IMG/VR virus record: IMGVR_UViG_3300026488_000026 | Span: 14,937-78,936 of that record | DNA from: a virus | Strand: one strand, 5' to 3' | DNA: 64,000 bases | Shown: positions 2,992 to 57,330 of the stretch, piece after piece | Layout of the letters: each line of letters opens with the position of its first letter | How positions within the stretch are numbered: the stretch's first letter is position 1 | Translations under genes and position numbers: made by a program | Notes under the pieces: model-generated | Told to the model about the DNA's origin: nothing | Databases searched by the model: none | The model's input: only the letters and a program-made list of their open reading frames with translations

Positions 2992-4347
2992 CTAAACTTT
3001 TAAATCAGGATCGCCTCCTAAAGGGTCTGTACTTCCTACACTACTTGGTTTATTATTTTGGCTTTCAGAATTATCAGTATTATTTTCTGAATTATTTTTA
3101 CTCATAGCAACTAAATCTTGGAAGAATTGAGCTTCGCTACCTGTTAAGAAAGCAGGGACAATATTTTTATCTGCACCATCAAAATCCATTTCTGGTAAAT
3201 CAACTAAATTTCTTGCTTCATTTAATGTGGCAAGTCCTGTTGCAAACAATGTTCTCGCACTATCAGCTTTTACATCAAGAGCCGTATCAAGTTCTGTAAT
3301 TCTTCCAAAATCAAATTCAAAATGATACTTACCATAACCAAATTGTTTTCCTAAAAACAAATTAATTTGGTCTTGTATTCTATATAAATAAGGTCTTACA
3401 GCGGTATTAAATACAACTTTCATTAATTCTTGTGGTTTTCCAGCACTACTTGACTCACCTCCTAAAACAAGTGCATTTAATTTAAAAACTCTTAAAACTC
3501 TTTTTTCACTTATATTTATACTATCTAAAAGCATTGCATCTTTAGGGCTTGCTTGAACTGTCTTATAATCCATTTTGGCTGGTAAAACAGCTATACCTCT
3601 TCTTTCACTACCACCTTTTCCATATAAAGCATTAAATTGTTCTCTTAATTCTTCTATTTGTTGAGGAGTTAGAGCGTATTCTGCTTTTAAAATACCAGCT
3701 AAAATTACACTTCCTTCATAAAATTCTTTTAAACTTTCAATGGCATCTTTTTCTAATGTTAAAGTATCAAGTAAAGGGGCTACACTTGGTAGCCCATAAT
3801 AAGCATTATTTAAAGTTGGATTTACAATCCAAATAAGTTCATTTTCTTTATAAGCAATTTTATCATTATAAATATAACCTTTAATAAATTTAGTCGCATC
3901 GGGCACTACTTTAACATTGTGAGGTTGAGTTAAAAACCAAGTTTCATAACTTCCTTTTACATTTTCAAAAGTTAAAGGAGCTACACCAGAGAGTAATAAA
4001 CCTTGAATTGCAAGTTCAATTATTGTCCCCCAAGACCAAAACGGATTTGGTCTGTATTCCCATTCTCTTAATTTTTTGTCCTTAACAGGTAGTTTTTTAC
4101 CAGATTTATCTAACTGATATAATCTTGGGACGGCTTGTCCTCCAGCTTTTGCTATATAATCAACAGCACTAAAAACAAGCTCACTTGTATGAAAAGAATT
4201 TTCCATAGCACTTGTAGCTAAAATACCATTTCCATCTTTATAATCTTCAAAAATTTTTTTATTTGCTTTTGTAGCTTTGGTATTCATATATATTAATGTT
4301 TCTTTTTTTGTCTGAGGTTGTTTTTTAAAAAGATCAAAAAAACCCAT
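2992..4347 (-). CDS. Portal protein (HK97 family)
   Basis: RPNPFWS, YYGLPS, TLNEARNLVDLP motifs. Confidence 0.93.
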   Translation of the reverse strand: MGFFDLFKKQPQTKKETLIYMNTKATKANKKIFEDYKDGNGILATSAMENSFHTSELVFSAVDYIAKAGGQAVPRLYQLDKSGKKLPVKDKKLREWEYRPNPFWSWGTIIELAIQGLLLSGVAPLTFENVKGSYETWFLTQPHNVKVVPDATKFIKGYIYNDKIAYKENELIWIVNPTLNNAYYGLPSVAPLLDTLTLEKDAIESLKEFYEGSVILAGILKAEYALTPQQIEELREQFNALYGKGGSERRGIAVLPAKMDYKTVQASPKDAMLLDSINISEKRVLRVFKLNALVLGGESSSAGKPQELMKVVFNTAVRPYLYRIQDQINLFLGKQFGYGKYHFEFDFGRITELDTALDVKADSARTLFATGLATLNEARNLVDLPEMDFDGADKNIVPAFLTGSEAQFFQDLVAMSKNNSENNTDNSESQNNKPSSVGSTDPLGGDPDLKV

Positions 4348-4379
4348 CTATTTTCCTTTTTAATTATTATTACATAACA

Positions 4380-4387
4380 TATATCAG
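4380..4387 (-). promoter_or_regulatory. Late promoter motif CTGATATA (portal)
   Basis: 33 nt upstream of ATG. Confidence 0.7.
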
Positions 4388-4449
4388 TTTTAATAAAAAC
4401 ATAAAAAATAAAGGAGAGAAAAATGAAACCTAATTTTAAGGGGAGGACA

Positions 4450-4487
4450 TTCAATTGAGCTTTATTTAAAAATAAAGCTCAATTGAA
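4450..4487. repeat. Perfect 18-bp inverted repeat
   Basis: TTCAATTGAGCTTTATTT-AA-AAATAAAGCTCAATTGAA; no U-tract on either side. Confidence 0.95.
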
Positions 4488-4561
4488 CACCCACATCAGG
4501 TGTTCTAAATTTAACACCCACTTCAGGTGTTATAAATTGAACACCCACATCAGGTGTTCTA
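4481..4561. repeat. Three tandem 27-bp palindromic units
   Basis: AATTGAACACCCACATCAGGTGTTCTA / AATTTAACACCCACTTCAGGTGTTATA / AATTGAACACCCACATCAGGTGTTCTA. Confidence 0.95.
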
Positions 4562-4565
4562 CTAT

Positions 4566-4573
4566 TATATCGG
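4566..4573 (-). promoter_or_regulatory. Late promoter motif CCGATATA heading the repeat element
   Basis: Same motif as at 7 late genes; 4 nt from the first repeat. Confidence 0.65.
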
Positions 4574-4576
4574 AAA

Positions 4577-5626
4577 TTATACAACCCGTGTTGAAATGTA
4601 AATTCCTTTATAAGTTTTTTTACTCAAAGTTGGGTCGGTAGTAAACAAAGGAAAATGTCTAATGCTTACTGTTTCTTTAAAAAACTCACTAAAATAAACT
4701 TTACCATCAGAAGTTTCTTGTCTAAATCTAAATTTTAATTGATTTACTCTCCCCCATTGTGGGTTAGAGCCAGAAAAGTCAAGAGTTATTTTATTGTTAG
4801 TAAATTTATTTAATGGATAATAAGTGCTTCTTCTTGATCTTGACATATTTCCTGTGTTACCACTATTGTTAAAATTAGTAACTTTATCATAACCCCACAT
4901 TTCAAGAATTAAGTTTTCAGGAAAAGTTTGATTAAAGACAAAACCACCAATTGAAATGGTATTGAAAAATTTTTTATTTAATTGCATTGTTTCATTTCCA
5001 TCAAATTGTTTATAAGTTACAGTCCAATCAGTAGGGTCGTCATTATTCATAACAGCATCTTCTAAATACATATATTGTTTTGTATTATCCCACATAGTAA
5101 TCGGTATCATTGCATTTCTTGCTTTTACTCTTGTAGTACCCTCATACCTATCCAATCTTATATTATACATTCCTCCAAATTTAATTGGCTCTTTATAAAC
5201 AATTTTAATTGTTCCAGCTGGATTACCATTAGGAAAACTTAAATGTTGTGTATAACCAGCTGGATTTATATATTGTTTTCCAAATTCCCAATCATCAAAC
5301 AAAGTATCATTAATATATACTTTTACTAAATTTTTATTTGGAAAAATTAATTGTCTTAACCACAATAGTTTTTGAGGCGAAATGTTATCCGTATGAGAAT
5401 ACATAATTATTTGATTTTCTCTAACATTACTACCTCCAAAAGGAACTAAATAGCCTTTTGAAATTGCATCATCTACATTGCTTGTAGCTACCGAATTATT
5501 TGCTACAACATAATAATCGTAACTACCAGAATCTACAATAACCAATTGATTTAATTCATAATTCTGTAATATAATCACATCTGTTGGCTTTAATACAGGT
5601 ATTTTATAATGAGTATAAACTTGCAT
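4577..5626 (-). CDS. Virion structural/fibre-associated protein
   Basis: Late operon; paralogous to C-half of 5637..7505; N-terminal motif shared with 14787..16349. Confidence 0.6.
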   Translation of the reverse strand: MQVYTHYKIPVLKPTDVIILQNYELNQLVIVDSGSYDYYVVANNSVATSNVDDAISKGYLVPFGGSNVRENQIIMYSHTDNISPQKLLWLRQLIFPNKNLVKVYINDTLFDDWEFGKQYINPAGYTQHLSFPNGNPAGTIKIVYKEPIKFGGMYNIRLDRYEGTTRVKARNAMIPITMWDNTKQYMYLEDAVMNNDDPTDWTVTYKQFDGNETMQLNKKFFNTISIGGFVFNQTFPENLILEMWGYDKVTNFNNSGNTGNMSRSRRSTYYPLNKFTNNKITLDFSGSNPQWGRVNQLKFRFRQETSDGKVYFSEFFKETVSIRHFPLFTTDPTLSKKTYKGIYISTRVV

Positions 5627-5636
5627 TTTTCCTCCT

Positions 5637-7505
5637 TTAAATAATTTTCATAAGTTTGTAATCACCTACAAACTTATTTTCACTATCAGATGCATCTATT
5701 GTAAATACAGGAAAAGTCCTGACACTAACTACACTTGAAAGCCAACGACTAAACAAAACATTACCACTTTCATCTGTTTTACCTAATCTAAAATGATAAA
5801 TACCATTTTTATCAAGATTAGAAATTTTATTAATAGTAAATTTACCAATAGGTATTAATCTTCCTTGTGCCTCCATGTTATTTGGGATATGTTTTGTATT
5901 TGGGGATTTACTATCGCTTTTCCATACTTCTATCCAAAAACCATCTGGTAATGTTTCTTCTTTCGGAAATTCTGCTATATAAGCAAAATTAGGACTTGCT
6001 TTTTCTACTATAATTTTAATATCTGGGTTATCAATTCTAATATATTTACAAGAATAGCGTTTATAACCTAATTCTTCCCCAAGTATGCTTACTTCTTTTA
6101 AATAAAATTTATTACCATGGCTATCTGTAATAAATTTAGTTATCATTTTTGGTCTTGAAGTTATTTGTAAAGAGCCTTCTTTTCTATATAATACAAGTTT
6201 ATAATCGCCCAAATTTATAGGCTCTAAATATTCAATTTTAATTTCATCATCGCTATTTAATGTAGTGTTGAATTTTAAATGAGTTGTATAATCAGGATTT
6301 AAACTTTGGACTTGATTGCCAAAATCCCAATCTTCATATTCTACTCCATTAACCCAAACTTTAAATAAATTTTTGTTTTTAAAAACATAGCGTTTTAAAA
6401 ACAACAAGTTTTTACCAGAAATATCTTTTCCTTTTCTATAAATAAAAACACGATTAGTTGTATCACTACTATCGTTAAAGCTAAACAATTCTCCCGTGTT
6501 AATATCAATACCTATTACATAAGCATTTTCTGGTTTTGGTTTTGGGGTCTTTGCATAAGAATAAAAAATAGGATTTTTCATTTTAAAATCAAAAGCATCT
6601 TTTGTTACTGAGAAATAAGGTTTAATTGATGCAAAATCATTTCCTAAAGCAATATCATATTGTGCTTGGTCTCCATAAGCTCCAACTACTAATTGCTTAT
6701 CACTAAGATTACCTCCTTTACCAGCCAAATAAGCTTGATAAAAACTTGTTGGATACATTGTTAAAAAAACTTGGTCTTTATAAGGGTCAGCAGAGGTAGA
6801 AGCCGTAAATCCAGCCCCAGCATAATTATCAGAATTATTTTCATTTGTTACATTTATTTCAACAATACCATAAACATTTCTTTTTATAGCAATGCGTTGG
6901 ACATCATCCGCCGTTTGATTGTTAGGTTGTAATTGTTTTCCAATTCCTGTATCTGATTCAGTTTTTTCCCAATAAGTTTTTTTATCAATAATATCACAGA
7001 TATCTTTTGGCGTGTATCTTCTAACTTCATCAACAGCACAAGGATTTTGTTTTTCAACTTCAGTTATTTTATGAATTTGAACGCCAAGATAAAACCATTT
7101 TGGATTACCATCCTCGTCTTTCCTTGCTTCATACAAACCAGCTTTCTTTCTATTAAATAAAGTCCAAGTTCCTGTTGCTTTTTGAACTAACCATTGCTCC
7201 CCTAAATGGTCGGCTGGGTCAGGTAAATCAGCAAAAGTTTCAACTTCGCCTTCCCAACCATCAAAACTTGAACTACCTCCTCCTAAACTAACTTCAACCC
7301 AACTTATCAAATCATCTTGTAATTGCCAAAATTTTCCATCTTCTTGACAATAAACTACCATTCCTGATTTTCTTCTTAAATCAGGAATGTTATCTCTCTC
7401 TTCAATAGTAGCTACAACACGAAAACCACCTTCTAAATGAGTATCTTCAACTAAAGGATATTCTCCTCCACCTGTATCAAATTTTCCTGTTATTTTAATC
7501 CCCAT
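5637..7505 (-). CDS. Head/tail fibre-like protein
   Basis: GGFRVVATIEERDNIP...RRKSGMVVY and VETFADLP fibre-type modules. Confidence 0.6.
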   Translation of the reverse strand: MGIKITGKFDTGGGEYPLVEDTHLEGGFRVVATIEERDNIPDLRRKSGMVVYCQEDGKFWQLQDDLISWVEVSLGGGSSSFDGWEGEVETFADLPDPADHLGEQWLVQKATGTWTLFNRKKAGLYEARKDEDGNPKWFYLGVQIHKITEVEKQNPCAVDEVRRYTPKDICDIIDKKTYWEKTESDTGIGKQLQPNNQTADDVQRIAIKRNVYGIVEINVTNENNSDNYAGAGFTASTSADPYKDQVFLTMYPTSFYQAYLAGKGGNLSDKQLVVGAYGDQAQYDIALGNDFASIKPYFSVTKDAFDFKMKNPIFYSYAKTPKPKPENAYVIGIDINTGELFSFNDSSDTTNRVFIYRKGKDISGKNLLFLKRYVFKNKNLFKVWVNGVEYEDWDFGNQVQSLNPDYTTHLKFNTTLNSDDEIKIEYLEPINLGDYKLVLYRKEGSLQITSRPKMITKFITDSHGNKFYLKEVSILGEELGYKRYSCKYIRIDNPDIKIIVEKASPNFAYIAEFPKEETLPDGFWIEVWKSDSKSPNTKHIPNNMEAQGRLIPIGKFTINKISNLDKNGIYHFRLGKTDESGNVLFSRWLSSVVSVRTFPVFTIDASDSENKFVGDYKLMKII

Positions 7506-7516
7506 TTAAAAACTCC

Positions 7517-8332
7517 TTAACTGATAGTGCTATCTAACGGACTACCTTGTTGATAAGTAGTTCGTAATGCTTTATATTCAATTGTAACACCATAATCATT
7601 TGTTATATTTATATTATCTAAATAAGTAAAATCCACGGCAAAACCCGATTCATTGTCACGCCAATCATTAATATTTCCCCATTCAGCTGGATAAAAAACA
7701 AAATAATATCTCAATTCACCATGATTATCAAAATTATATTTTCCTGAATACCCACTTTTTAAAGCACTATTCTCAAGTGCTTTAATTTCTTCCGCAGTTA
7801 AAGTTTCTTTTACCGAAGTTCCCCAATAAACTCTTGCTCTCCAATAAACACGAAAATCTCTACTAAATGTTTGTTCTTTTGTATTAACACCACTAATTCT
7901 CCAAGTATAATAACTATTAATTTCGCTTGAAGTTTTATCCTCCCCTATATCTAAATTTTCCTGACCATCATTTGCTAAATTACTACCTAAAATTGTATTA
8001 GCGTTTATATCTTTAATGCTAATAGAGTTTTCTTTTATATTTTCTGAATGACTTGTACTCCATTTAAAAGTTCTAATCCCACCGCTTATTGCTTGTCCTA
8101 CTTCTAATTGCGTTGATTGTCCTTCAATATAAAAACTTGTAAAAGAAGGATATTGATAAGGAAACAAAATCATTTTTAAAACTTCACAAGGTTGCATTCC
8201 ATTAATATCTGTACCAGCTTCTAATCCACCATGTTTTTCTGGTACAACTTCTTCAGTTTGCATAACACAACCACCAGACCCTCCACCAACTCCTATATCA
8301 GGGTAAATCACAGAAAATTTATTATTTGGCAT
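7517..8332 (-). CDS. Virion structural protein (Ig-like)
   Basis: ILFPYQYPSF motif, beta-rich; late promoter upstream. Confidence 0.55.
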   Translation of the reverse strand: MPNNKFSVIYPDIGVGGGSGGCVMQTEEVVPEKHGGLEAGTDINGMQPCEVLKMILFPYQYPSFTSFYIEGQSTQLEVGQAISGGIRTFKWSTSHSENIKENSISIKDINANTILGSNLANDGQENLDIGEDKTSSEINSYYTWRISGVNTKEQTFSRDFRVYWRARVYWGTSVKETLTAEEIKALENSALKSGYSGKYNFDNHGELRYYFVFYPAEWGNINDWRDNESGFAVDFTYLDNINITNDYGVTIEYKALRTTYQQGSPLDSTIS

Positions 8333-8397: not shown

Positions 8398-9756
8398 TTA
8401 TACAACTTGAATTTGTAAATTTTGTAATTTCCACCAACCACTTGTTAAATAACGCAAAGCACCAACAGCTAAGTCAAAATGCCCATCTTTGTTTCTTTCT
8501 ATTGTTTTTCCATTTGAATTTTCTTTCCAATGAGCCAACTTTAATTCTTCTATTAATTGCATACAATTTTCAGATATAAATAATTTTCCTTTTTGAAATG
8601 CTGTGTTAATGTCCCTAATGCTTTCTACTAATTGAATTGGTGCGGGTTGTGTATAGTAGTTATAGCTATATGCCATATCAGCCATTGTCAAACTTGCACT
8701 TGGGTCACAAAACCTTACAACTTGCATATCAGGATTTTCCGCATATCTTTGTTCTATTTCTCTGAATTGTTTAACATGCCATTCAATAGGCATTTGCCCA
8801 GCTTTATATTCGTCCAAAACATAAATATTGCCCGTCATAGGCTCTACCCAAGCTATAACAAAACTTGTATTATCTCTATAACCTATATCAATTCCTACTA
8901 CAAATGTATCTTTTGTTGTCATTTTGTTTTTCAAATCATTAATTCTAAATACATTTTTTTCTAAATCAAAAGCATAAAATACTTGTAAATCCTCGCTAAA
9001 CCCACTTTGAAACTCACATAAATATTCTTGTTCAAAACTTCTTTTATCAAGTTTAGCTTTAATTGCCTCAATCATTTCTCTTGTTATCATAGGATTATCA
9101 TAAATAGTTACCTTTTTACAAAAATAATCATCGCGTTCAGCACATCTTTTCCATAATTTATAAAAATCATTATCAAAAGTTCTTGGCGTTCCTATAAAAA
9201 AAGTTTTAGAATACATAAAACCATTTTCATCAGTTCCATAATCATTTTGTGCTGGAGAAATATAAGTTTCCCAAATTTCAAGAACATTATTAATACTCGC
9301 GGTTTCATCAAAAATAACCAAACTAAATTTATCTCCAAGTGCATTTTCATAATTTTTTTCAGTAACGACACGAAACTTTGCACCATTTTCTAATGTAAAT
9401 GTTAAACCTTTCATATCTTTTGATTTAAAAGGCAATTGTAATTTGTTTACATCTTTTTCAACATTACTAAAAATAGCTTGTGCATTTGCAAAAGTAGGCG
9501 TTACTAATAATATACTTGAATTTGGAACTAAAAGTTCAGCGGAGGCAATTTTTGACATAACTGTTGATTTACCAGCTCTTCTTGACATTAAAAAAACACC
9601 AACATTAAAATCCCCTTTTTGTATTCTATCAATTATTTCTTGTTGATATTTTGTAGGAGTAAATTCAAAAAGTTTCATTACCTTATTATAATCTATCTTC
9701 TTTTTAACTTTTTTATAAAGCTCTATTTCTTGATTTATAGGTTTAAATTCAGACAT
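8398..9756 (-). CDS. terL: Terminase large subunit (T5-like)
   Basis: SRRAGKS Walker A, VIFDE Walker B, GTP motif, FEQEYLCEF, GIDIG nuclease motif. Confidence 0.95.
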   Translation of the reverse strand: MSEFKPINQEIELYKKVKKKIDYNKVMKLFEFTPTKYQQEIIDRIQKGDFNVGVFLMSRRAGKSTVMSKIASAELLVPNSSILLVTPTFANAQAIFSNVEKDVNKLQLPFKSKDMKGLTFTLENGAKFRVVTEKNYENALGDKFSLVIFDETASINNVLEIWETYISPAQNDYGTDENGFMYSKTFFIGTPRTFDNDFYKLWKRCAERDDYFCKKVTIYDNPMITREMIEAIKAKLDKRSFEQEYLCEFQSGFSEDLQVFYAFDLEKNVFRINDLKNKMTTKDTFVVGIDIGYRDNTSFVIAWVEPMTGNIYVLDEYKAGQMPIEWHVKQFREIEQRYAENPDMQVVRFCDPSASLTMADMAYSYNYYTQPAPIQLVESIRDINTAFQKGKLFISENCMQLIEELKLAHWKENSNGKTIERNKDGHFDLAVGALRYLTSGWWKLQNLQIQVV

Positions 9757-9898: not shown

Positions 9899-9994
9899 GT
9901 TTTAAAATTCCCTAAAATTCGACATTTTAAACTTTTTTTATAAAAAATACTTTATAAAAATCGTCAAAACTCTTGTATAAAATTTTTTACGCTA

Positions 9995-10526: not shown

Positions 10527-10990
10527 ATGGAATATAGCGTAATAATAAACCTAACTCAACACAAAGCAACAGAAGAACGGAAACAAGCAGGTGTAATTGA
10601 TTTACCAGAAAAATATCAAACAAAACTAAAAACACTTTAAACTTTTGATGAATTACTTACTTGTGAGGAAATTATTAATAGAGCTGAAAAATAAGAGATT
10701 TAGTTTTAGAGTTTTTAACAGATGATTTAAGTCCTGTTAAAAATGAGGTCAAACAAATTTTAAAACTAAATGGAATTAAACAATTTGGGGAGTTTAGAAA
10801 ATTAAATTTAGGTTTTATGCTTGGTGGTGCATCTTATTTGATATGTGTTTTAGAAGAGGAAATAAGTTATTTTGGAACACCTTTATATGCTTTTACAAAA
10901 AGAATTGTAGAGGAAACAAAAAAAGCAGATGGAACAATAGAAAAGAAAGTAATTTTTAAACATGAAGGTTTTGTCCTCACTTGTGTTTAG
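10527..10990 (+). pseudogene. Disrupted Csx20-like (ring-nuclease-related) gene
   Basis: NLTQHKATEE... N-terminus, stop at 10638, frameshift near 10690, then GG..YL...PLYAFTKR.VEE...DG..EKK.IFKHEGF. Confidence 0.65.
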
Positions 10991-11505
10991 TCTTTTATAA
11001 CTTGTTGTAAGATATTTACAAAGACATTTCCTGTTGTTCCCAATTTTTTTCTTTCTTCTTCTTTCATAACATCATCAAGCATTTTAGCAATATCTAAAAT
11101 ATCTTTATCAGTAGCATTTGCAAAATTTCCGCCATGTTTTTCTATTTGTTCTATTTTATCTTCTAATGTTCTCATAATAACTGAAACTACAACATTTTTA
11201 GCATTTTCTTTTATTTCTTTCATAATCGCATTATAAAATTCTTTAACATAAGGTTTTGATAGAGTTCTACTAATGTATTGATAAGGCAAACCAAGTTCTT
11301 TTGCAATTCTTTTATTACTATAACCACGAACTTTCATTTCAACTACATATCTTTCGATTGTTGATAAAGGTTTATCAAAATTAACATTTGTAAATTCAAG
11401 TAAATCAGCTTTTATCTCGCCTTTAGCATTAGCATCAGGTAAATTTTTAAGTTCTTCTTGATTAACAACAGGAACTCCTACAATTTCTTTTGTTTCTTTA
11501 GACAT
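10987..11505 (-). CDS. terS: Terminase small subunit (probable)
   Basis: HTH (GYSNKRIAKELGL) plus helical C-terminus; T5-TerS-like size; near terL. Confidence 0.7.
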   Translation of the reverse strand: MSKETKEIVGVPVVNQEELKNLPDANAKGEIKADLLEFTNVNFDKPLSTIERYVVEMKVRGYSNKRIAKELGLPYQYISRTLSKPYVKEFYNAIMKEIKENAKNVVVSVIMRTLEDKIEQIEKHGGNFANATDKDILDIAKMLDDVMKEEERKKLGTTGNVFVNILQQVIKD

Positions 11506-11728
11506 TAACATTCCTTTTTTCTAATGAGTCAGCAAATTTTAATACTAAATCATTTATTTCATCTTCACTAATTTTAGTTTCTTTGTTTTTACAACATTCA
11601 CAACGACTTTTGTTATCTAATTCGTCTAAATCATTAACATAAAAAATATTAGAACAAGTGCAAACAATTTCATATTTACCAAAATTCTCTAAATATGTAT
11701 AATCAAGCATTGGATTAATTTTTTTCAT
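11498..11728 (-). CDS. Zn-finger hypothetical protein
   Basis: CxC...CxxC; AAGGA RBS. Confidence 0.6.
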   Translation of the reverse strand: MKKINPMLDYTYLENFGKYEIVCTCSNIFYVNDLDELDNKSRCECCKNKETKISEDEINDLVLKFADSLEKRNVNV

Positions 11729-25661: not shown

Positions 25662-25690
25662 ATTATAAAAAATTTTTTATAAAATGTCAA
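25662..25690 (-). promoter_or_regulatory. sigma70 promoter with palindromic spacer
   Basis: TTGACA-17-TATAAT; TTATAAAAAATTTTTTATAA palindrome. Confidence 0.9.
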
Positions 25691-26062: not shown

Positions 26063-26064
26063 AA

Positions 26065-26094
26065 ATTATAAAAAATTTTATAATTACTTGTCAA
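26065..26094 (-). promoter_or_regulatory. sigma70 promoter of the candidate sRNA
   Basis: TTGACA-18-TATAAT. Confidence 0.8.
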
Positions 26095-29515: not shown

Positions 29516-29764
29516 TTATTCTCCTTCTGTTGTTGATACTAAAGGTTTAACTTTATTTATTATAATCCACCAAAATTTTTTCCATAAAGGTAATTTAATG
29601 ATATACCAATTTTTGTCATCCATTGAATACTCTCTAATTCTATTTTTATTTGTAGTCCATTGAACTCCCATTAATTTAAAAATAATAGGTTTTGTTTTAC
29701 CTCTTGGGTTTCTAAAAGCATAACCTTTTTCTAAAAGGTATTTTTGTGCTTTTCTTATTGTCAT
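29516..29764 (-). CDS. Hypothetical basic protein, operon leader
   Basis: Conserved leader ATAAAAAATAAAGGAGAGAAAAATG. Confidence 0.7.
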   Translation of the reverse strand: MTIRKAQKYLLEKGYAFRNPRGKTKPIIFKLMGVQWTTNKNRIREYSMDDKNWYIIKLPLWKKFWWIIINKVKPLVSTTEGE

Positions 29765-29795
29765 TTTTCTCTCCTTTATTTTTTATTGCGTAAAA

Positions 29796-29824
29796 ATTAT
29801 AAAAAATTTTTTATAAAAAGTCAA
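29796..29824 (-). promoter_or_regulatory. sigma70 promoter with palindromic spacer
   Basis: TTGACT-17-TATAAT. Confidence 0.85.
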
Positions 29825-33883: not shown

Positions 33884-34150
33884 TTATGCTTTTAAATCTA
33901 ATTTTAAATCAAAGTCTATTAATTCTAAATCTCTTTCTAATAATCTTCCTTTTAACCTTTTATTTTCTATTTTTTCTTGATTATAAAGTTTTTTATAATA
34001 GTTAATTTTATTTTCAAGTTCATTAATATATTCTTGTAATAAGCGTAAATGATAAAATTTAATAGATAACTTATCATTATCAGTAATTTCAAGTTTCCAT
34101 CTTTTAATTGCTTCAATAGTAGGTTGAACGATTTGTTTTTTATTTTTCAT
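33884..34150 (-). CDS. Coiled-coil hypothetical protein
   Basis: Conserved AAAGGAGAGAAAAATG leader. Confidence 0.7.
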   Translation of the reverse strand: MKNKKQIVQPTIEAIKRWKLEITDNDKLSIKFYHLRLLQEYINELENKINYYKKLYNQEKIENKRLKGRLLERDLELIDFDLKLDLKA

Positions 34151-34418
34151 TTTTCTCTCCTTTATTTTTTAATATATTAAAGGCTATCATAAACGCTTTT
34201 TTAAAAGCGTTATCATCTATGTTTAAGAAAAACTTTTCATCTACCATAAAACTATCTTTTCCGTTATTATAAACAACTTCTAATTGTCCATCACTACTCT
34301 TTAACCATTCTTTAAAAGCGTCCCAAAATAGAACGCCTGAAATAGCGTCAAGTGCTGTTTCTTTATCATATGCTTTTTCTATTACAAAAACCTTTTTATT
34401 TTTCCGTTTATTTTTCAT
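34140..34418 (-). CDS. Hypothetical protein, operon leader
   Basis: Conserved AAAGGAGAGAAAAATG leader. Confidence 0.7.
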   Translation of the reverse strand: MKNKRKNKKVFVIEKAYDKETALDAISGVLFWDAFKEWLKSSDGQLEVVYNNGKDSFMVDEKFFLNIDDNAFKKAFMIAFNILKNKGEKNEK

Positions 34419-34448
34419 TTTTCTCTCCTTTATTTTTATTGCATTAAA

Positions 34449-38743: not shown

Positions 38744-38772
38744 ATTATAAAAAATTTTTTATAAAAAAGCAA
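38744..38772 (-). promoter_or_regulatory. sigma70 promoter with palindromic spacer
   Basis: TTGCTT-17-TATAAT. Confidence 0.75.
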
Positions 38773-40136: not shown

Positions 40137-40415
40137 TTAAACCATTTCAAAAAATTTACTTAATTTATCATATAAAAAAGCTCCTATTCTATAATTACCA
40201 TTTCCTAAATTTTCAATATACTTTTCAAATTTTTTTAAAACATACAAAATTCTTTGCTTACTATCTCCTGTTTCACTTGCAATTTCTTTTAAAGAAAATT
40301 TCCCTTTTTCCCTTTGAATTTTAGCTCCTAATAATAAATACAATAAACCTCTAACAGAAATAGAATTTAATTCATTTTTTGAAATTTCATTTAATCTTTT
40401 TAATAACAATTTCAT
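40137..40415 (-). CDS. Winged-HTH protein
   Basis: FSLKEIASETGDSKQRI; AAGGAGAGAAAAATG leader. Confidence 0.65.
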   Translation of the reverse strand: MKLLLKRLNEISKNELNSISVRGLLYLLLGAKIQREKGKFSLKEIASETGDSKQRILYVLKKFEKYIENLGNGNYRIGAFLYDKLSKFFEMV

Positions 40416-40454
40416 TTTTCTCTCCTTATAAAATTTTTTGAATTATAATATATT

Positions 40455-46274: not shown

Positions 46275-47618
46275 TTAATTAAATTTTAATGGTAGTCTAA
46301 ATTGATATCCTTTTGGTAATAAACTATCATCTCTTACAAATTTTACATTTTTACCTCCTATACCATAGAGTCTATATTTTTCAACTTCTGTTTCAAAATA
46401 ATGATTTTTTACAAAGTCAAAGTGTTCTACAAATTCATTATCAATATTACTTATTGCAACTTCATAAAAATTCTTATAACACATAGGGCATAATTGTTTT
46501 TTAAATTTAGAAAAATAATTACCACAACAAACACATTTTCTAAACATTCCTACTTGCAAATCCACTATTTGTCTATAAATTTCTTCTTTATTAAAATAAT
46601 AAATATTTTCTTGAACATATAAATTTTCCAAACCAAATGTTACAATTTCATCAGTTATTTTATACTTAATTTTTTTACCATTTTCTAATATAAAACCAAT
46701 AGGTAACAAATTTTCATCAAACCAATAATCTAAAACTTTAATAAAACTTTTTCTTGTTTTTAATTTTAAAATTTTAATGCCTTGTTTATCTATTATTAAA
46801 TGTTTTTTAATTAAATTTTTACCTAAACTTTTTAAATCATAGAAAGTATTAATTTCTTTTATATTAGGATATTTAATTTTTATGTTATTGTATTTTTTAA
46901 AACGAAAATTTTTAATTTTTTTGCCTTCGTTAATCATAAATAAAGGAACTAAAATGTCTTTTTCATAAATAAAATAAAAGGACATGTTATTTTTAAACTT
47001 AAAAATTTCTTTTAAAAAACTAATTATTTTTTTACTTTTTAAATCAGAATCAATTAAATTTCCTTTTTTAACAAAACTAAAAATTTTATATTCACTTACA
47101 CCTTTAGGTAAAATATAAAAATCTAAAGGATAATTTAATTTATCGCCAACGCCTCTAAGCAATTTAATTTTATAATCTTTTAAATCCAAATTTTCAATTT
47201 TTAATAAAGCATATAACTCTTCTTTTGTATATAACTTTTTTAAAACACTTAAAATAAAATCTTCACCTACATTTAAAAATTTACCACTTAAAAACAATTT
47301 AATTATCCAAACTATCTTTTTATTAATACTTTTAGTATATTCTTTTAAAGCCGTTAAATCTCCTTGCTCTATATAAAAAAGAATTAAACCTAATGCTGAA
47401 ATTAAATCTCCACCTTCTATCAAATCACCTTCTCTTATAAAACTTAAAAAATTTTTATTTTTTGGAGTTAAAGAATAATATGCCGAAATTAATAATTCAA
47501 ATTCTTTTCTAAACTTATTATAAGCAACTAAAAAAGCATTTTGTCTATTATAGTAGCCTTTTTCAAAATAAAAATCATTTACTAAATTAAAAAGAATTGT
47601 AATATTTTTTGATTTCAT
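46275..47618 (-). CDS. Hypothetical protein; probable inactive DNA ligase paralogue with C-terminal Zn finger
   Basis: By-eye colinearity with 26426..27778; lacks KxDG; CVCC...CPMC. Confidence 0.45.
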   Translation of the reverse strand: MKSKNITILFNLVNDFYFEKGYYNRQNAFLVAYNKFRKEFELLISAYYSLTPKNKNFLSFIREGDLIEGGDLISALGLILFYIEQGDLTALKEYTKSINKKIVWIIKLFLSGKFLNVGEDFILSVLKKLYTKEELYALLKIENLDLKDYKIKLLRGVGDKLNYPLDFYILPKGVSEYKIFSFVKKGNLIDSDLKSKKIISFLKEIFKFKNNMSFYFIYEKDILVPLFMINEGKKIKNFRFKKYNNIKIKYPNIKEINTFYDLKSLGKNLIKKHLIIDKQGIKILKLKTRKSFIKVLDYWFDENLLPIGFILENGKKIKYKITDEIVTFGLENLYVQENIYYFNKEEIYRQIVDLQVGMFRKCVCCGNYFSKFKKQLCPMCYKNFYEVAISNIDNEFVEHFDFVKNHYFETEVEKYRLYGIGGKNVKFVRDDSLLPKGYQFRLPLKFN

Positions 47619-48189
47619 CACTATCTATCCTTTCTACTTTACCATATTGAATAAAATCTCTAATAAAAATAATACTTTTTACTATAATAAATTTAAGACT
47701 ACTCAAAGATATGTTATTTACTTTAGCCGTTTTTATTAAACCATAACCTTTTATAAAATAATCATGCAAAAGTTTTAATTCAAAATCAGTAAAATAATTT
47801 TTTAATAATTCTCTTATATTTTCTTGTAATAAATATCTCTCAACATCTTCCATATAATTTTCATTTATATGAAATTCCTCATAATTTTCAGGGGGAGCAG
47901 TAAGCCAACTTTCTTTATCTTTTAAACTTTTTTTAATTGCACCATATTTATTTAAACTATTTTTAGCAACCCAATCTAACATTCTTCCATAAATTTTTTT
48001 ATAAGCAAATCCCATAAAATAATCGTTTTTATCACTATCATATTTTTCTTTTGCTAAAAGATAACCTAAAACCCCTTCTTGAATTAAATCCTCTAAATCA
48101 ATTCCTGCAAAACTTCTCTCGTATATTTTATAAGCTAAACCTTCAATGTGTTTATAATCTTTTTCTGGTATATTATACTTATTTGACAT
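47587..48189 (-). CDS. RNA polymerase sigma factor, FliA/sigma28-like
   Basis: DLEDLIQEGVLGYLLAKEKYD...F..FAYKKIYGRMLD (region 2); divergent region 4. Confidence 0.88.
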   Translation of the reverse strand: MSNKYNIPEKDYKHIEGLAYKIYERSFAGIDLEDLIQEGVLGYLLAKEKYDSDKNDYFMGFAYKKIYGRMLDWVAKNSLNKYGAIKKSLKDKESWLTAPPENYEEFHINENYMEDVERYLLQENIRELLKNYFTDFELKLLHDYFIKGYGLIKTAKVNNISLSSLKFIIVKSIIFIRDFIQYGKVERIDSDEIKKYYNSF

Positions 48190-56921: not shown

Positions 56922-57269
56922 TTAACCTTCTAAATCATTAAAAGTTTCAAAAAAAGTAGCAATATAAATCAAATAATTCGTCCTATCAACACTTTTTAAT
57001 ACTTCTATTAAATCAATAAAAGAATTAATTTCAACTTCCTCCATTAATTCTAAAAAATGAACAAAACCATTTACCAAACATTCATTTTTATCAAGCATAC
57101 TTGAAAATAAAATAAATAAAGCAATTGTATCTTGCTCTAAAATAGCTTCTTTAAACGAAATTTCTTTGTTTTTATATTTTTCTACTAAAGCATCAAATTC
57201 TTCTTTACTAATACCATAAACTTCCCATAAATTTTCTGCATTAGGATTTACTATTTTTAAATCTCTCAT
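56922..57269 (-). CDS. Hypothetical protein, operon leader
   Basis: Conserved AAAGGAGAGAAAAATG leader. Confidence 0.7.
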   Translation of the reverse strand: MRDLKIVNPNAENLWEVYGISKEEFDALVEKYKNKEISFKEAILEQDTIALFILFSSMLDKNECLVNGFVHFLELMEEVEINSFIDLIEVLKSVDRTNYLIYIATFFETFNDLEG

Positions 57270-57301
57270 TTTTCTCTCCTTTATTTTTTTATTGCATTAA
57301 A

Positions 57302-57330
57302 ATTATAAAAAATTTTTTATAAAAAGTCAA
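57302..57330 (-). promoter_or_regulatory. sigma70 promoter with palindromic spacer
   Basis: TTGACT-17-TATAAT. Confidence 0.85.

What the first reader, a model, noticed from the sequence alone, without database searches (positions are those of the whole stretch)
4450..4573. Promoter-headed array of three 27-nt hairpins with compensatory changes, then an 18-bp perfect stem
Seen: each minus-strand unit folds GAACACCU-GAUGU-GGGUGUUC. Unit 2 changes the outer G-C pair to U-A on both arms and has loop GAAGU, so pairing is preserved. The array starts right after a late promoter motif. Inference: protein-binding RNA scaffold (boxB-like pentaloops, a decoy for a repeat-binding defence protein such as Cas6 or a type III toxin, or processing sites). 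It could instead be a triple DNA operator AACACC-N7-GGTGTT.
Basis: partly seen in the sequence, partly recalled or inferred. Interest (0 to 1): 0.7.

Follow-up and report, generated by a model that had tools for sequence, protein, structure and literature searches.

The report
Late-promoter RNA with three conserved hairpins
Between two structural genes of an uncultured hydrothermal-vent phage lies a short non-coding stretch that very probably folds, as RNA, into three near-identical hairpins and one long hairpin; evolution has kept the fold, but its partner and job are unknown.

Summary
On the minus strand a promoter-like motif CCGATATA (4566-4573) has no gene behind it. It is followed by three 27-nt units that each fold into a hairpin (4539-4559, 4512-4532, 4485-4505), then by the longest perfect inverted repeat of the 79-kb genome (4450-4487, 18 bp).

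Only two other public phage genomes carry the element, with portal proteins 88-92% identical. In all nine hairpins every stem substitution is compensated. The long stem keeps about -21 kcal/mol on the minus strand in all three genomes. On the plus strand it falls to -9.3 in one genome, because G.U pairs become A.C mismatches. This favours a minus-strand RNA fold over a double-stranded DNA operator.

No Rfam family matches, including CRISPR repeats and ToxI. No CRISPR-like array with this stem was found in 185,579 species genomes. Boxed-in features of boxB, CsrB-type sponges and intrinsic terminators are not met.

Downstream lies a 27-28-nt inverted copy of the leader shared by several early operons (4401-4428), a lead from an earlier scan note on this genome, then a second promoter motif and the portal gene. 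My best reading, at 0.4, is a late non-coding RNA or long leader whose hairpins stabilise or dock a protein on an antisense tail. Expression could not be tested.

The parts
4577..5626 (-). Upstream gene (349 aa, no family). It is a paralogue of the 622-aa gene at 5637-7505. Its stop codon directly abuts the promoter motif.
   Evidence: Searches found no Pfam, PHROG or NCBIfam family; 31% identity over 302 aa to the 622-aa protein, E 2e-32.
4566..4573 (-). P1: orphan copy of the late-promoter-like motif CCGATATA (context TTTCCGATATAATAGTA). No ORF start follows it.
   Evidence: 14 copies on the coding strand against 1 on the other; 10 lie 30-45 nt before SD+ATG. Conserved as TTCCGATATAAYAGTAGAAC in G000, G001 and G002. 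A phage sigma-70-family gene lies at 47587-48189.
4539..4559 (-). Hairpin 1: GAACACCU-GAUGU-GGGUGUUC. It begins 6 nt after the motif, so at or near the predicted 5' end of the RNA.
   Evidence: dG -9.8 kcal/mol as sense against -8.1 as antisense.
4512..4532 (-). Hairpin 2: UAACACCU-GAAGU-GGGUGUUA. The outer pair is U-A here and in G001, and A-U in G002.
4485..4505 (-). Hairpin 3: identical to hairpin 1 in this genome. In G001 and G002 its fifth pair is G-C instead of A-U.
4450..4487 (-). Long stem-loop: 18 perfect A/U-rich base pairs with no U-tract after it. It shares (G)UUC with hairpin 3.
   Evidence: I1; longest perfect hairpin of the genome; three double compensatory changes plus G.U wobbles across the three genomes; sense dG -21.7/-21.1/-21.3 against antisense -20.2/-16.9/-9.3; no terminator-like site.
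4429..4449 (-). Variable pyrimidine-rich spacer (UGUCCUCCCCUUAAAAUUAGG). It is not alignable between the three genomes.
4401..4428 (-). Anti-leader: the minus-strand RNA here is complementary to the 5' leader, SD, AUG and first codon shared by early operons. The plus strand reads as an early leader followed by an unconserved 7-11-codon frame.
   Evidence: 24-27-nt perfect complementarity to leaders at 34145-34172, 29759-29786, 34413-34440 and 57264-57291, and 18 nt at 40410-40437; each genome's copy fits its own leaders best; the plus-strand peptides are not conserved.
4380..4387 (-). P2: second motif copy, CTGATATA, at the usual distance before the portal start codon
   Evidence: Distant relatives have a single CGATATA-type motif at this distance from the portal ATG.
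2992..4347 (-). Portal gene (HK97-type), the first gene downstream
   Evidence: phrog_12, E 2e-55. (PF04860).
47587..48189 (-). Phage sigma-70-family factor whose region 2 is closest to FliA/WhiG. It is the candidate reader of the CYGATATA motif.
   Evidence: PF04542, 31.9 bits against a cut-off of 24. (TIGR02937 above its cut-off; FliA models give the best E-values but stay below their cut-offs).

Best explanation
**What it is.** The array is the structured 5' domain of a late, non-coding RNA, or of a long leader of the portal mRNA. It is transcribed on the minus strand from an orphan copy of the phage's late promoter motif, which is probably read by the phage's own FliA-like sigma factor.

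**Shown.**
- The three units and the long stem are under selection to pair within the minus strand.
- The motif in front of them behaves like a late promoter.

**Inferred.**
- Transcription starts a few bases before hairpin 1, so the RNA begins with a terminal stem-loop followed by two more and a 17-18-bp stem.
- This block protects the RNA from 5'-end-dependent decay and/or docks a protein. The invariant tandem U.G/G.U pairs next to a purine-rich triloop are the likely recognition feature.
- It thereby keeps stable the single-stranded segment about 20-45 nt further on, which is complementary to the shared leader, ribosome-binding site and start codon of several early (replication) operons.
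- Pairing would mask those sites late in infection, and the duplexes of up to 27 bp could be cut by RNase III. That would be an RNA-based shut-off of early-gene translation.
For: **Structure.**
- 9 of 9 hairpins are fully paired across three genomes.
- All stem substitutions are double and compensatory: outer pair G-C/U-A/A-U, fifth pair A-U/G-C. Cells paired are 100% against 92.4% in shuffles (0 of 500 reach it), the covariation score is 0.254 against 0.087 (0 of 500), and slid registers give 31-53%.
- Divergence within the array is 10-14% by my count, so the pairing is not just recent common descent.
- The long stem has three double compensations and G.U wobbles. Its energy is constant on the minus strand (-21.7/-21.1/-21.3) but falls to -9.3 on the plus strand in G002.
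- The rival long-range pairing of hairpin 1 with hairpin 3 is broken by an A.C mismatch in G002, while the local hairpins are intact.

**Promoter.**
- Motif statistics and the orphan status of P1 hold in all three genomes.
- CGATATA-type motifs sit before the portal gene in distant relatives.
- A sigma gene is present.

**Antisense tail.**
- Perfect matches of 24-27 nt to four early leaders that sit behind TTGACT-17-TATAAT promoters.
- The segment is conserved while the spacer next to it is unalignable.
- Each genome's copy fits its own leaders best: T, C, or C plus an extra A at the same place.
- The plus-strand mini-frame behind the inverted leader is not conserved, and no plus-strand promoter was called directly upstream.
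Against: - No transcript data exist, so promoter activity, the 5' end and the 3' end are all inferred.
- No terminator lies between the tail and the portal gene, so the RNA may simply be a long portal leader.
- Hairpins that only stabilise would not need three copies, nor invariant wobble pairs.
- In G002 the longest perfect complementarity to a leader is only 16 nt (25 of 29 overall), and low-complexity matches of that length also occur on the control strand.
- An inverted leader could be a relic of a divergent early gene. Several distant relatives have an opposite-strand gene start at about that distance from the portal gene. Gene conversion could keep such a relic similar to the other leaders.
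- Predicted accessibility of the tail varies: mean unpaired probability 0.50, 0.92 and 0.25.
- Only three related genomes carry the element.
Confidence: 0.4

Rival explanations
1. A stand-alone decoy or sponge RNA of about 125 nt that ends at the long stem. The three identical hairpins would titrate an RNA-binding protein of the host or the phage. Candidates are a Cas6-type repeat binder (Racr-like), a type III toxin, a translational regulator, or a defence nuclease.
For: [quoted passage not shown]
- Three copies and the invariant U.G/G.U pairs next to the loop suggest a repeated recognition site.
- The hairpins have about 52% G+C in a 25% G+C genome.
Against: - No Rfam family at gathering score.
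- No CRISPR-DR or ToxI model among all matches up to E = 10.
- The exact-stem scan of 185,579 species genomes gave about the number of hits I estimate by chance, all single except for one unrelated Omnitrophota repeat family, and no CRISPR-like array.
- The central loop bases vary (AUG, AAG, AGA, GGG, AAA).
- The long stem has no U-tract and was not called a terminator.
- No RNA-binding or Cas6/ToxN-like protein turned up among about 56 phage proteins scanned.
Confidence: 0.2
2. A purely cis-acting mRNA element between the inserted three-gene block and the portal gene. It would act as a processing site (RNase III at the long stem), a 3' stabiliser for the upstream message, or an attenuator. 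Either way it would uncouple portal expression from upstream transcription, with P2 supplying the translatable portal mRNA.
For: - The element lies exactly between the stop codon of the 349-aa gene and the portal gene, and exists only in the three genomes that have the extra genes between terminase and portal.
- A perfect stem of 17-18 bp is a plausible double-strand RNase substrate.
- In the predicted folds, the portal Shine-Dalgarno sequence of long P1 transcripts is paired with upstream U/C-rich segments in all three genomes, while short P2 transcripts would lack them.
Against: - The other junctions between late genes have no such structures.
- A promoter motif placed directly in front of the hairpins is not needed for a 3' stabiliser.
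- No canonical terminator is present.
- The pairing partners of the portal SD differ between the genomes.
Confidence: 0.2
3. A double-stranded DNA site: three palindromic operators AACACC-N7-GGTGTT for a dimeric DNA-binding protein, or iterons of an origin, packaging site or centromere.
For: - Tandem 27-bp units that each hold a 7+7 inverted repeat resemble operator, iteron or centromere arrays.
- The 174-aa protein at 10987-11511 has a weak HTH signal (GerE E 0.001; Cbp1 HTH E 4e-4, far below its cut-off).
- The 127-bp terminal repeat of the record equals a common assembler k-mer length, so the true genome ends and packaging site are unknown.
Against: - Positions that vary always change in both half-sites together. 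That is what pairing predicts, not what protein read-out predicts.
- The conserved centre TG-NNN-TG is not symmetric.
- The adjoining long stem keeps its stability only on the minus strand as RNA.
- The 27-bp spacing (about 2.6 helical turns) puts neighbouring sites on different faces of the helix.
- No ParA/ParB, Rep or repressor genes were found.
- The region upstream of the terminase gene is the more usual place for a packaging site.
Confidence: 0.08
4. A coding repeat (27 nt = 9 codons), or a neutral relic with no function.
For: - The window has open frames through the array on both strands: 40 aa on the minus strand (4462-4584) and 52 aa on the plus strand (4483-4641).
- A repeat of 9 codons keeps any frame that is open in one unit open in all three.
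Against: - The minus-strand frame has a stop before it with no start codon after that stop, and a further stop between units 2 and 3 in G002.
- The substitutions are non-synonymous.
- The plus-strand frame has only a TTG start without a Shine-Dalgarno sequence, and its length is not conserved.
- Strict compensatory change argues against neutrality.
Confidence: 0.03

Closest known systems
Phage lambda/P22 boxB hairpins in nut sites (N-dependent antitermination) and HK022 put RNAs
   Same: Promoter-proximal RNA stem-loops with small purine-rich loops, placed in front of a strong hairpin and of late or downstream genes. They could act on the transcribing polymerase.
   Different: - boxB has a 5-bp stem with a GNRNA pentaloop ending in A and is paired with boxA. 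Here the stem has 8 bp, the loop is G-R-N-R-U, there are three copies and no boxA.
- The long stem has no U-tract, so there is no evident terminator to override.
- No N-like protein was identified.
- Comparison from established knowledge, not from a model search.
RNA anti-CRISPRs (Racr / solitary repeat units; PMC10651486) and phage pseudo-ToxI repeats
   Same: Non-coding repeat units encoded by a phage directly behind a promoter and not linked to cas or toxin genes. The idea is the same: titrate a repeat-binding protein.
   Different: - No similarity to any CRISPR repeat or ToxI model was found.
- The units abut each other with a 27-nt period.
- The host and its repeats are unknown.
5'-terminal stabiliser hairpins (ompA-type) and phage T7 RNase III processing hairpins
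   Same: A stem-loop at the very 5' end, and a long perfect stem between cistrons of a late phage operon. Both are established ways to set mRNA life-time (established knowledge).
   Different: One hairpin is enough in those cases. Here three near-identical copies with invariant wobble pairs are kept.
Phage antisense regulators that mask ribosome-binding sites (P22 sar, P1/P7 c4, lambda OOP); functional analogues T4 RegA and RegB for early-mRNA shut-off (PMC3014915)
   Same: A phage RNA complementary to the translation start region of phage genes of another temporal class. T4 reaches the same end with proteins that bind or cut early Shine-Dalgarno regions.
   Different: - Those RNAs are encoded opposite or next to their single target.
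- Here one trans-encoded segment would match the shared leader of at least five dispersed early operons, and it is fused to a repeat-hairpin domain.
- It is untested.
Sigma-28 (FliA)-dependent small RNAs of Campylobacter (PMC4626219, PMC11187230)
   Same: Small RNAs transcribed from CGAT-type late (sigma-28) promoters within a temporal hierarchy of gene classes.
   Different: Those are cellular flagellar regulators with no sequence or structure likeness to this element. The comparison rests on titles and abstracts only.

Membership tests
Racr / viral solitary CRISPR repeat unit | Sequence and structure likeness to the CRISPR repeat of a (host) CRISPR-Cas system | tested here: inconclusive
   No Rfam CRISPR-DR match up to E = 10. 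The exact-stem pattern in 185,579 species genomes gave no multi-copy array. The host is unknown and diverged repeats would be missed.
Racr / viral solitary CRISPR repeat unit | Lies just downstream of a promoter and is not associated with cas genes | tested here: met
   The orphan CCGATATA motif lies 6 nt before hairpin 1. No cas-like genes were found among the scanned proteins.
Type III antitoxin (ToxI-like) or phage pseudo-ToxI | Tandem direct repeats of about 34-40 nt that form pseudoknots, followed by a terminator and a toxN-family gene (or, in phages, likeness to a host ToxI) | tested here: not met
   The period is 27 nt and the units are simple hairpins. The downstream gene is the portal. 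No ToxI match in Rfam. Likeness to a host antitoxin is not testable because the host is unknown.
boxB (N-utilisation) hairpin | 5-bp stem closed on a GNRNA pentaloop, preceded by boxA | tested here: not met
   All nine loops are G-R-N-R-U with U at position 5, on 8-bp stems. No boxA-like element lies between motif and hairpin, which are only 6 nt apart.
Intrinsic (Rho-independent) terminator | G+C-rich stem followed directly by a U-tract | tested here: not met
   No terminator-like sites in 4000-5000 on either strand. The long stem is A/U-rich and is followed by UGUCCUCCCC.
CsrB/RsmZ-type protein sponge | Multiple hairpins that present GGA in the loop | tested here: not met
   The loops are GAUGU, GAAGU, GAGAU, GAAAU and GGGGU. 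None contains GGA.
REP/BIME-type dispersed extragenic palindromes | Many copies dispersed through the intergenic regions of the genome | tested here: not met
   A covariance model built from the nine units finds only those nine in the three phage genomes and 19 related loci. The next hit has E = 3.5.
Palindromic double-stranded DNA operator | Symmetry is needed only at the DNA level, so the element is strand-neutral | tested here: inconclusive
   The small hairpins are Watson-Crick palindromes, apart from the asymmetric but conserved TG..TG centre. The adjoining long stem is clearly strand-specific. Coordinated changes in the half-sites favour pairing.
Trans-acting antisense RNA that masks ribosome-binding sites | Extended complementarity to translation start regions of target mRNAs | tested here: met
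   24-27-nt perfect complementarity to four early leaders and 18 nt to a fifth. Controls with the reversed query and the other strand gave none in G000 and at most one marginal (6-mismatch) hit in G001 and G002.
Trans-acting antisense RNA that masks ribosome-binding sites | The RNA is made, and it represses its targets | not testable with these tools
   No RNA run holding this stretch is listed.

The most novel reading that the evidence does not exclude
A dedicated RNA switch from early to late infection. The phage's own sigma factor would transcribe a small RNA late in infection. Its three identical hairpins, each with tandem G.U pairs next to the loop, would recruit or titrate a specific protein. 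Its tail would silence at least five dispersed early operons at once by masking the leader they share. It would thus be an RNA counterpart of T4 RegA/RegB, with a new repeat-hairpin protein-binding module.
Probability: 0.25. Interest if true: 0.75.

Novelty: new variant of a known kind. Interest (0 to 1): 0.55.

Why it matters
If the reading holds, this phage times its infection partly with an RNA. One late transcript would turn off translation of many early operons through a leader they share. Model phages such as T4 do this with proteins. The hairpin module would also be a new, compact and evolutionarily validated RNA element: an 8-bp stem, tandem U.G/G.U pairs and a purine triloop, repeated three times. 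Its binding partner could be an unknown host or phage RNA-binding protein, possibly a defence factor. Even on the modest reading, it is a clean case of a lineage-specific structured RNA in an uncultured phage clade with no cultured relatives (best protein identities to sequenced phages are 29% or less).

Tried and rejected
- **Rfam.** The whole window at gathering thresholds gave nothing. The element at E up to 10 gave only generic hairpin matches to microRNA-precursor and snoRNA models, far below their cut-offs.
- **Phage collection.** DNA similarity gave no match. Protein searches with the portal and the DNA polymerase found only relatives at 29% identity or less, so they gave no host clue.
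- **Pattern scans.**
  - GAACACC-N7-GGTGTTC in viral contigs gave mostly single chance hits.
The one exception was a REP-like repeat in an Omnitrophota genome of about 50% G+C, which I judge unrelated.
  - A two-unit pattern in viral contigs found only the two known relatives.
- **Covariance model.** The model of the unit found no further copies.
- **Sequencing runs.** No RNA holder is listed. The only full holder is a hydrothermal-vent DNA run that may be the source sample.
- **Host identification.** Cluster members and control genomes gave nothing.
- **More distant relatives.** Two were fetched whole (G006 and G007, 36-37% G+C). They have a few gene-linked motif copies but no orphan promoter and no hairpin array.
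- **Coding reading.** Rejected, because the frame is broken in G002.
- **Long-range pairing of hairpin 1 with hairpin 3.** It is preferred by the energy-based folds but rejected as the conserved state, because G002 breaks it while keeping the local hairpins.
- **Plus-strand reading.** A plus-strand transcript using the inverted leader as a real start site is rejected as unlikely. There is no promoter call directly upstream, the peptides are not conserved, and the plus-strand fold is weakened in G002.

Full report
**Setting**

The window is bases 14,937-78,936 of a 78,936-bp IMG/VR phage record with 25% G+C. The only run that holds nearly all of the stretch is a hydrothermal-vent metagenome, which may be the source sample. 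The phage has no cultured relatives: its portal and DNA polymerase are at most 29% identical to proteins of sequenced phages.

It carries its own replication and nucleotide-metabolism genes:
- DNA polymerase A, a DnaB-like helicase, a primase and a ligase;
- ribonucleotide reductase, ThyX and a dCMP deaminase;
- several methylases.

It also carries a sigma-70-family factor whose region 2 is closest to FliA/WhiG.

The finding lies on the minus (coding) strand. The gene order there is large terminase (8398-9756), three genes without any family (271, 622 and 349 aa; the last two are paralogues), the element, the portal gene (2992-4347), a protease fusion and the major head protein.

**Observation**

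- Three 27-nt units lie head to tail. Each holds a 21-nt hairpin (4539-4559, 4512-4532, 4485-4505).
- Unit 2 has U-A instead of G-C as its outer pair and the loop GAAGU.
- A perfect 18-bp stem follows at 4450-4487.
- The palindrome AACACC-N7-GGTGTT occurs nowhere else in the genome.
- The fold is far more stable than shuffled sequence, z = -6.6.
- The 18-bp stem is the longest perfect hairpin of the genome.

**The promoter motif**

C[CT]GATATA occurs 14 times on the coding strand and once on the other strand.
- Ten copies lie about 30-45 nt before a Shine-Dalgarno sequence plus ATG of late genes.
- Three lie inside ORFs.
- One (4566-4573) has no ORF behind it, only the hairpins, which begin 6 nt later.

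The same count and the same single orphan are found in both relatives. More distant relatives have CGATATA or ACGATWAT about 30-40 nt before their portal start codon. The -10 element of sigma-28 promoters is GCCGATAA (established knowledge), which fits the FliA-like sigma gene. That the motif is a promoter remains an inference from these statistics.

**Relatives and covariation**

Only two public genomes carry the element: G001 (IMGVR_UViG_3300026484_000333) and G002 (IMGVR_UViG_3300026488_000022), with portal proteins 92% and 88% identical. Twenty-one more distant portal loci lack both the three extra genes and the element.

By my count, the three genomes differ at 10-14% of positions within the array. 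Even so, all nine hairpins are fully paired.
- The only stem changes are double ones: outer pair G-C, U-A or A-U; fifth pair A-U or G-C.
- Cells paired are 100% against 92.4 +/- 2.0% in shuffles (0 of 500 reach it).
- The covariation score is 0.254 against 0.087 (0 of 500).
- Slid registers pair at 31-53%.
- The pairs next to the loop are an invariant tandem U.G/G.U. The three central loop bases vary but stay purine-rich.

The long stem shows three double compensations and several G.U wobbles.

**RNA or DNA, and which strand**

The long-stem energy on the minus strand is -21.7, -21.1 and -21.3 kcal/mol in the three genomes. On the plus strand it is -20.2, -16.9 and -9.3, because G.U becomes A.C. 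That is the signature of selection on a minus-strand RNA fold.

In a DNA site read by a protein, a base is either contacted, and then conserved, or not contacted. In the second case the two half-sites drift independently. Strictly coordinated change points to pairing.

Energy-based folds prefer hairpin 1 pairing with hairpin 3. G002 breaks that pairing with an A.C mismatch while keeping all local hairpins, so the local hairpins are the conserved state.

The coding reading fails. The minus-strand frame carries stops in G002, and the plus-strand frame lacks a credible start.

**What lies downstream**

This part was prompted by an earlier scan note and was checked here.
- After a spacer that cannot be aligned between the genomes, the minus-strand RNA carries CAUUUUUCUCUCCUUUAUUUUUU (plus-strand coordinates 4401-4428).
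- It is perfectly complementary over 24-27 nt to the leader, Shine-Dalgarno sequence, AUG and first codon of four early operons, and over 18 nt to a fifth.
- Each of the four full matches sits behind a TTGACT-17-TATAAT promoter.
- The complementarity starts within a few bases of the predicted early transcription start.
- The segment is conserved in G001 and G002. Each copy fits its own genome's leaders best: T, C, or C plus an extra A at the same position.
- In G002 the longest perfect run is only 16 nt.
- A second motif copy, P2 (4380-4387), then stands at the normal distance from the portal ATG.

**Interpretation**

The best-supported picture is a late RNA that starts at P1, opens with three hairpins and a long stem, and continues into an anti-leader segment. 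I take the hairpin block to be a stabilising and probably protein-docking 5' domain, and the tail to mask early ribosome-binding sites late in infection. My confidence in this whole mechanism is 0.4. My confidence that the hairpins are selected minus-strand RNA structures is about 0.8.

Three things remain open:
- whether the RNA ends at the long stem (sponge reading, 0.2);
- whether it is only a cis element that sets portal expression (0.2);
- what binds the hairpins.

A DNA site (0.08) and a coding or neutral reading (0.03) are unlikely.

**Comparison with known systems**

No Rfam family matches. The defining features of boxB, intrinsic terminators, CsrB-type sponges, REP elements and type III antitoxin arrays were tested and are not met. 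Membership in the Racr class cannot be decided without the host. The antisense-regulator feature, extended complementarity to start regions, is met on sequence but is untested functionally. The element is therefore a new variant of known kinds of phage regulatory RNA, not a member of a described family.

**Limits**

- Only three genomes carry the element.
- There are no transcript data, and the host is unknown.

Noticed in passing
window 25663-25682, 29797-29816, 38745-38764, 57303-57322 (also 26064-26085): Early promoters form a repeated cassette: TTGACT, 17 nt, TATAAT. The spacer and -10 region form the perfect palindrome TTATAAAAAATTTTTTATAA, followed by a near-identical 25-28-nt leader. 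The palindrome could be an operator for a shut-off factor.
   Followed up: partly
whole genome G000, ends: The 'direct terminal repeat' of the record is exactly 127 bp, a common maximal assembler k-mer. It may mark a circular assembly rather than real genome ends, so the packaging site is unknown.
   Followed up: no
window 4577-8332: Three genes without any Pfam, NCBIfam or named-PHROG family (271, 622 and 349 aa; the last two are paralogues, 31% identity over 302 aa) sit between terminase and portal. This occurs only in the three genomes that also have the hairpin element. More distant relatives have the terminase directly before the portal, or a divergent gene there.
   Followed up: partly
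L143:2760-2890 (approx.); L145:2820-2950 (approx.); L135-L137, L141, L142 upstream of the portal gene: Distant relatives carry other conspicuous elements before their portal gene. L143 has an inverted repeat of about 45 bp. L145 has a direct repeat of about 42 nt. They share the motif (A)ATAGGTCTTGGGACA. The region upstream of the portal gene seems to be a hot spot for regulatory elements in this phage group.
   Followed up: no
L165, L166, L174, L188, L208 (one Omnitrophota genome assembled from a metagenome): A dispersed hairpin repeat GGGAACRCCTGGYGTGGGTGTTCCC lies on at least five contigs of one genome of about 50% G+C. It was picked up only because it fits the search pattern. It is probably a REP-like family unrelated to the phage.
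   Followed up: partly
window 9935-9960 and genome 9228-9253 (14.9 kb apart): The same hairpin, TTTTTATAAAAAATACTTTATAAAAA, with identical 12-nt flanks occurs twice in the genome. One copy lies just upstream of the terminase region.
   Followed up: no
window 10987-11511: A 174-aa protein has a weak HTH signal (GerE, sigma region 4 and Cbp1 HTH models, all below their cut-offs). It could be the small terminase or a DNA-binding regulator.
   Followed up: no
window 4429-4449 and the equivalents in G001 and G002: The spacer and tail after the long stem are pyrimidine-rich and G-poor in all three genomes although their sequences differ. That composition is typical of Rho loading sites and might define the 3' end of the RNA without an intrinsic terminator.
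   Followed up: no
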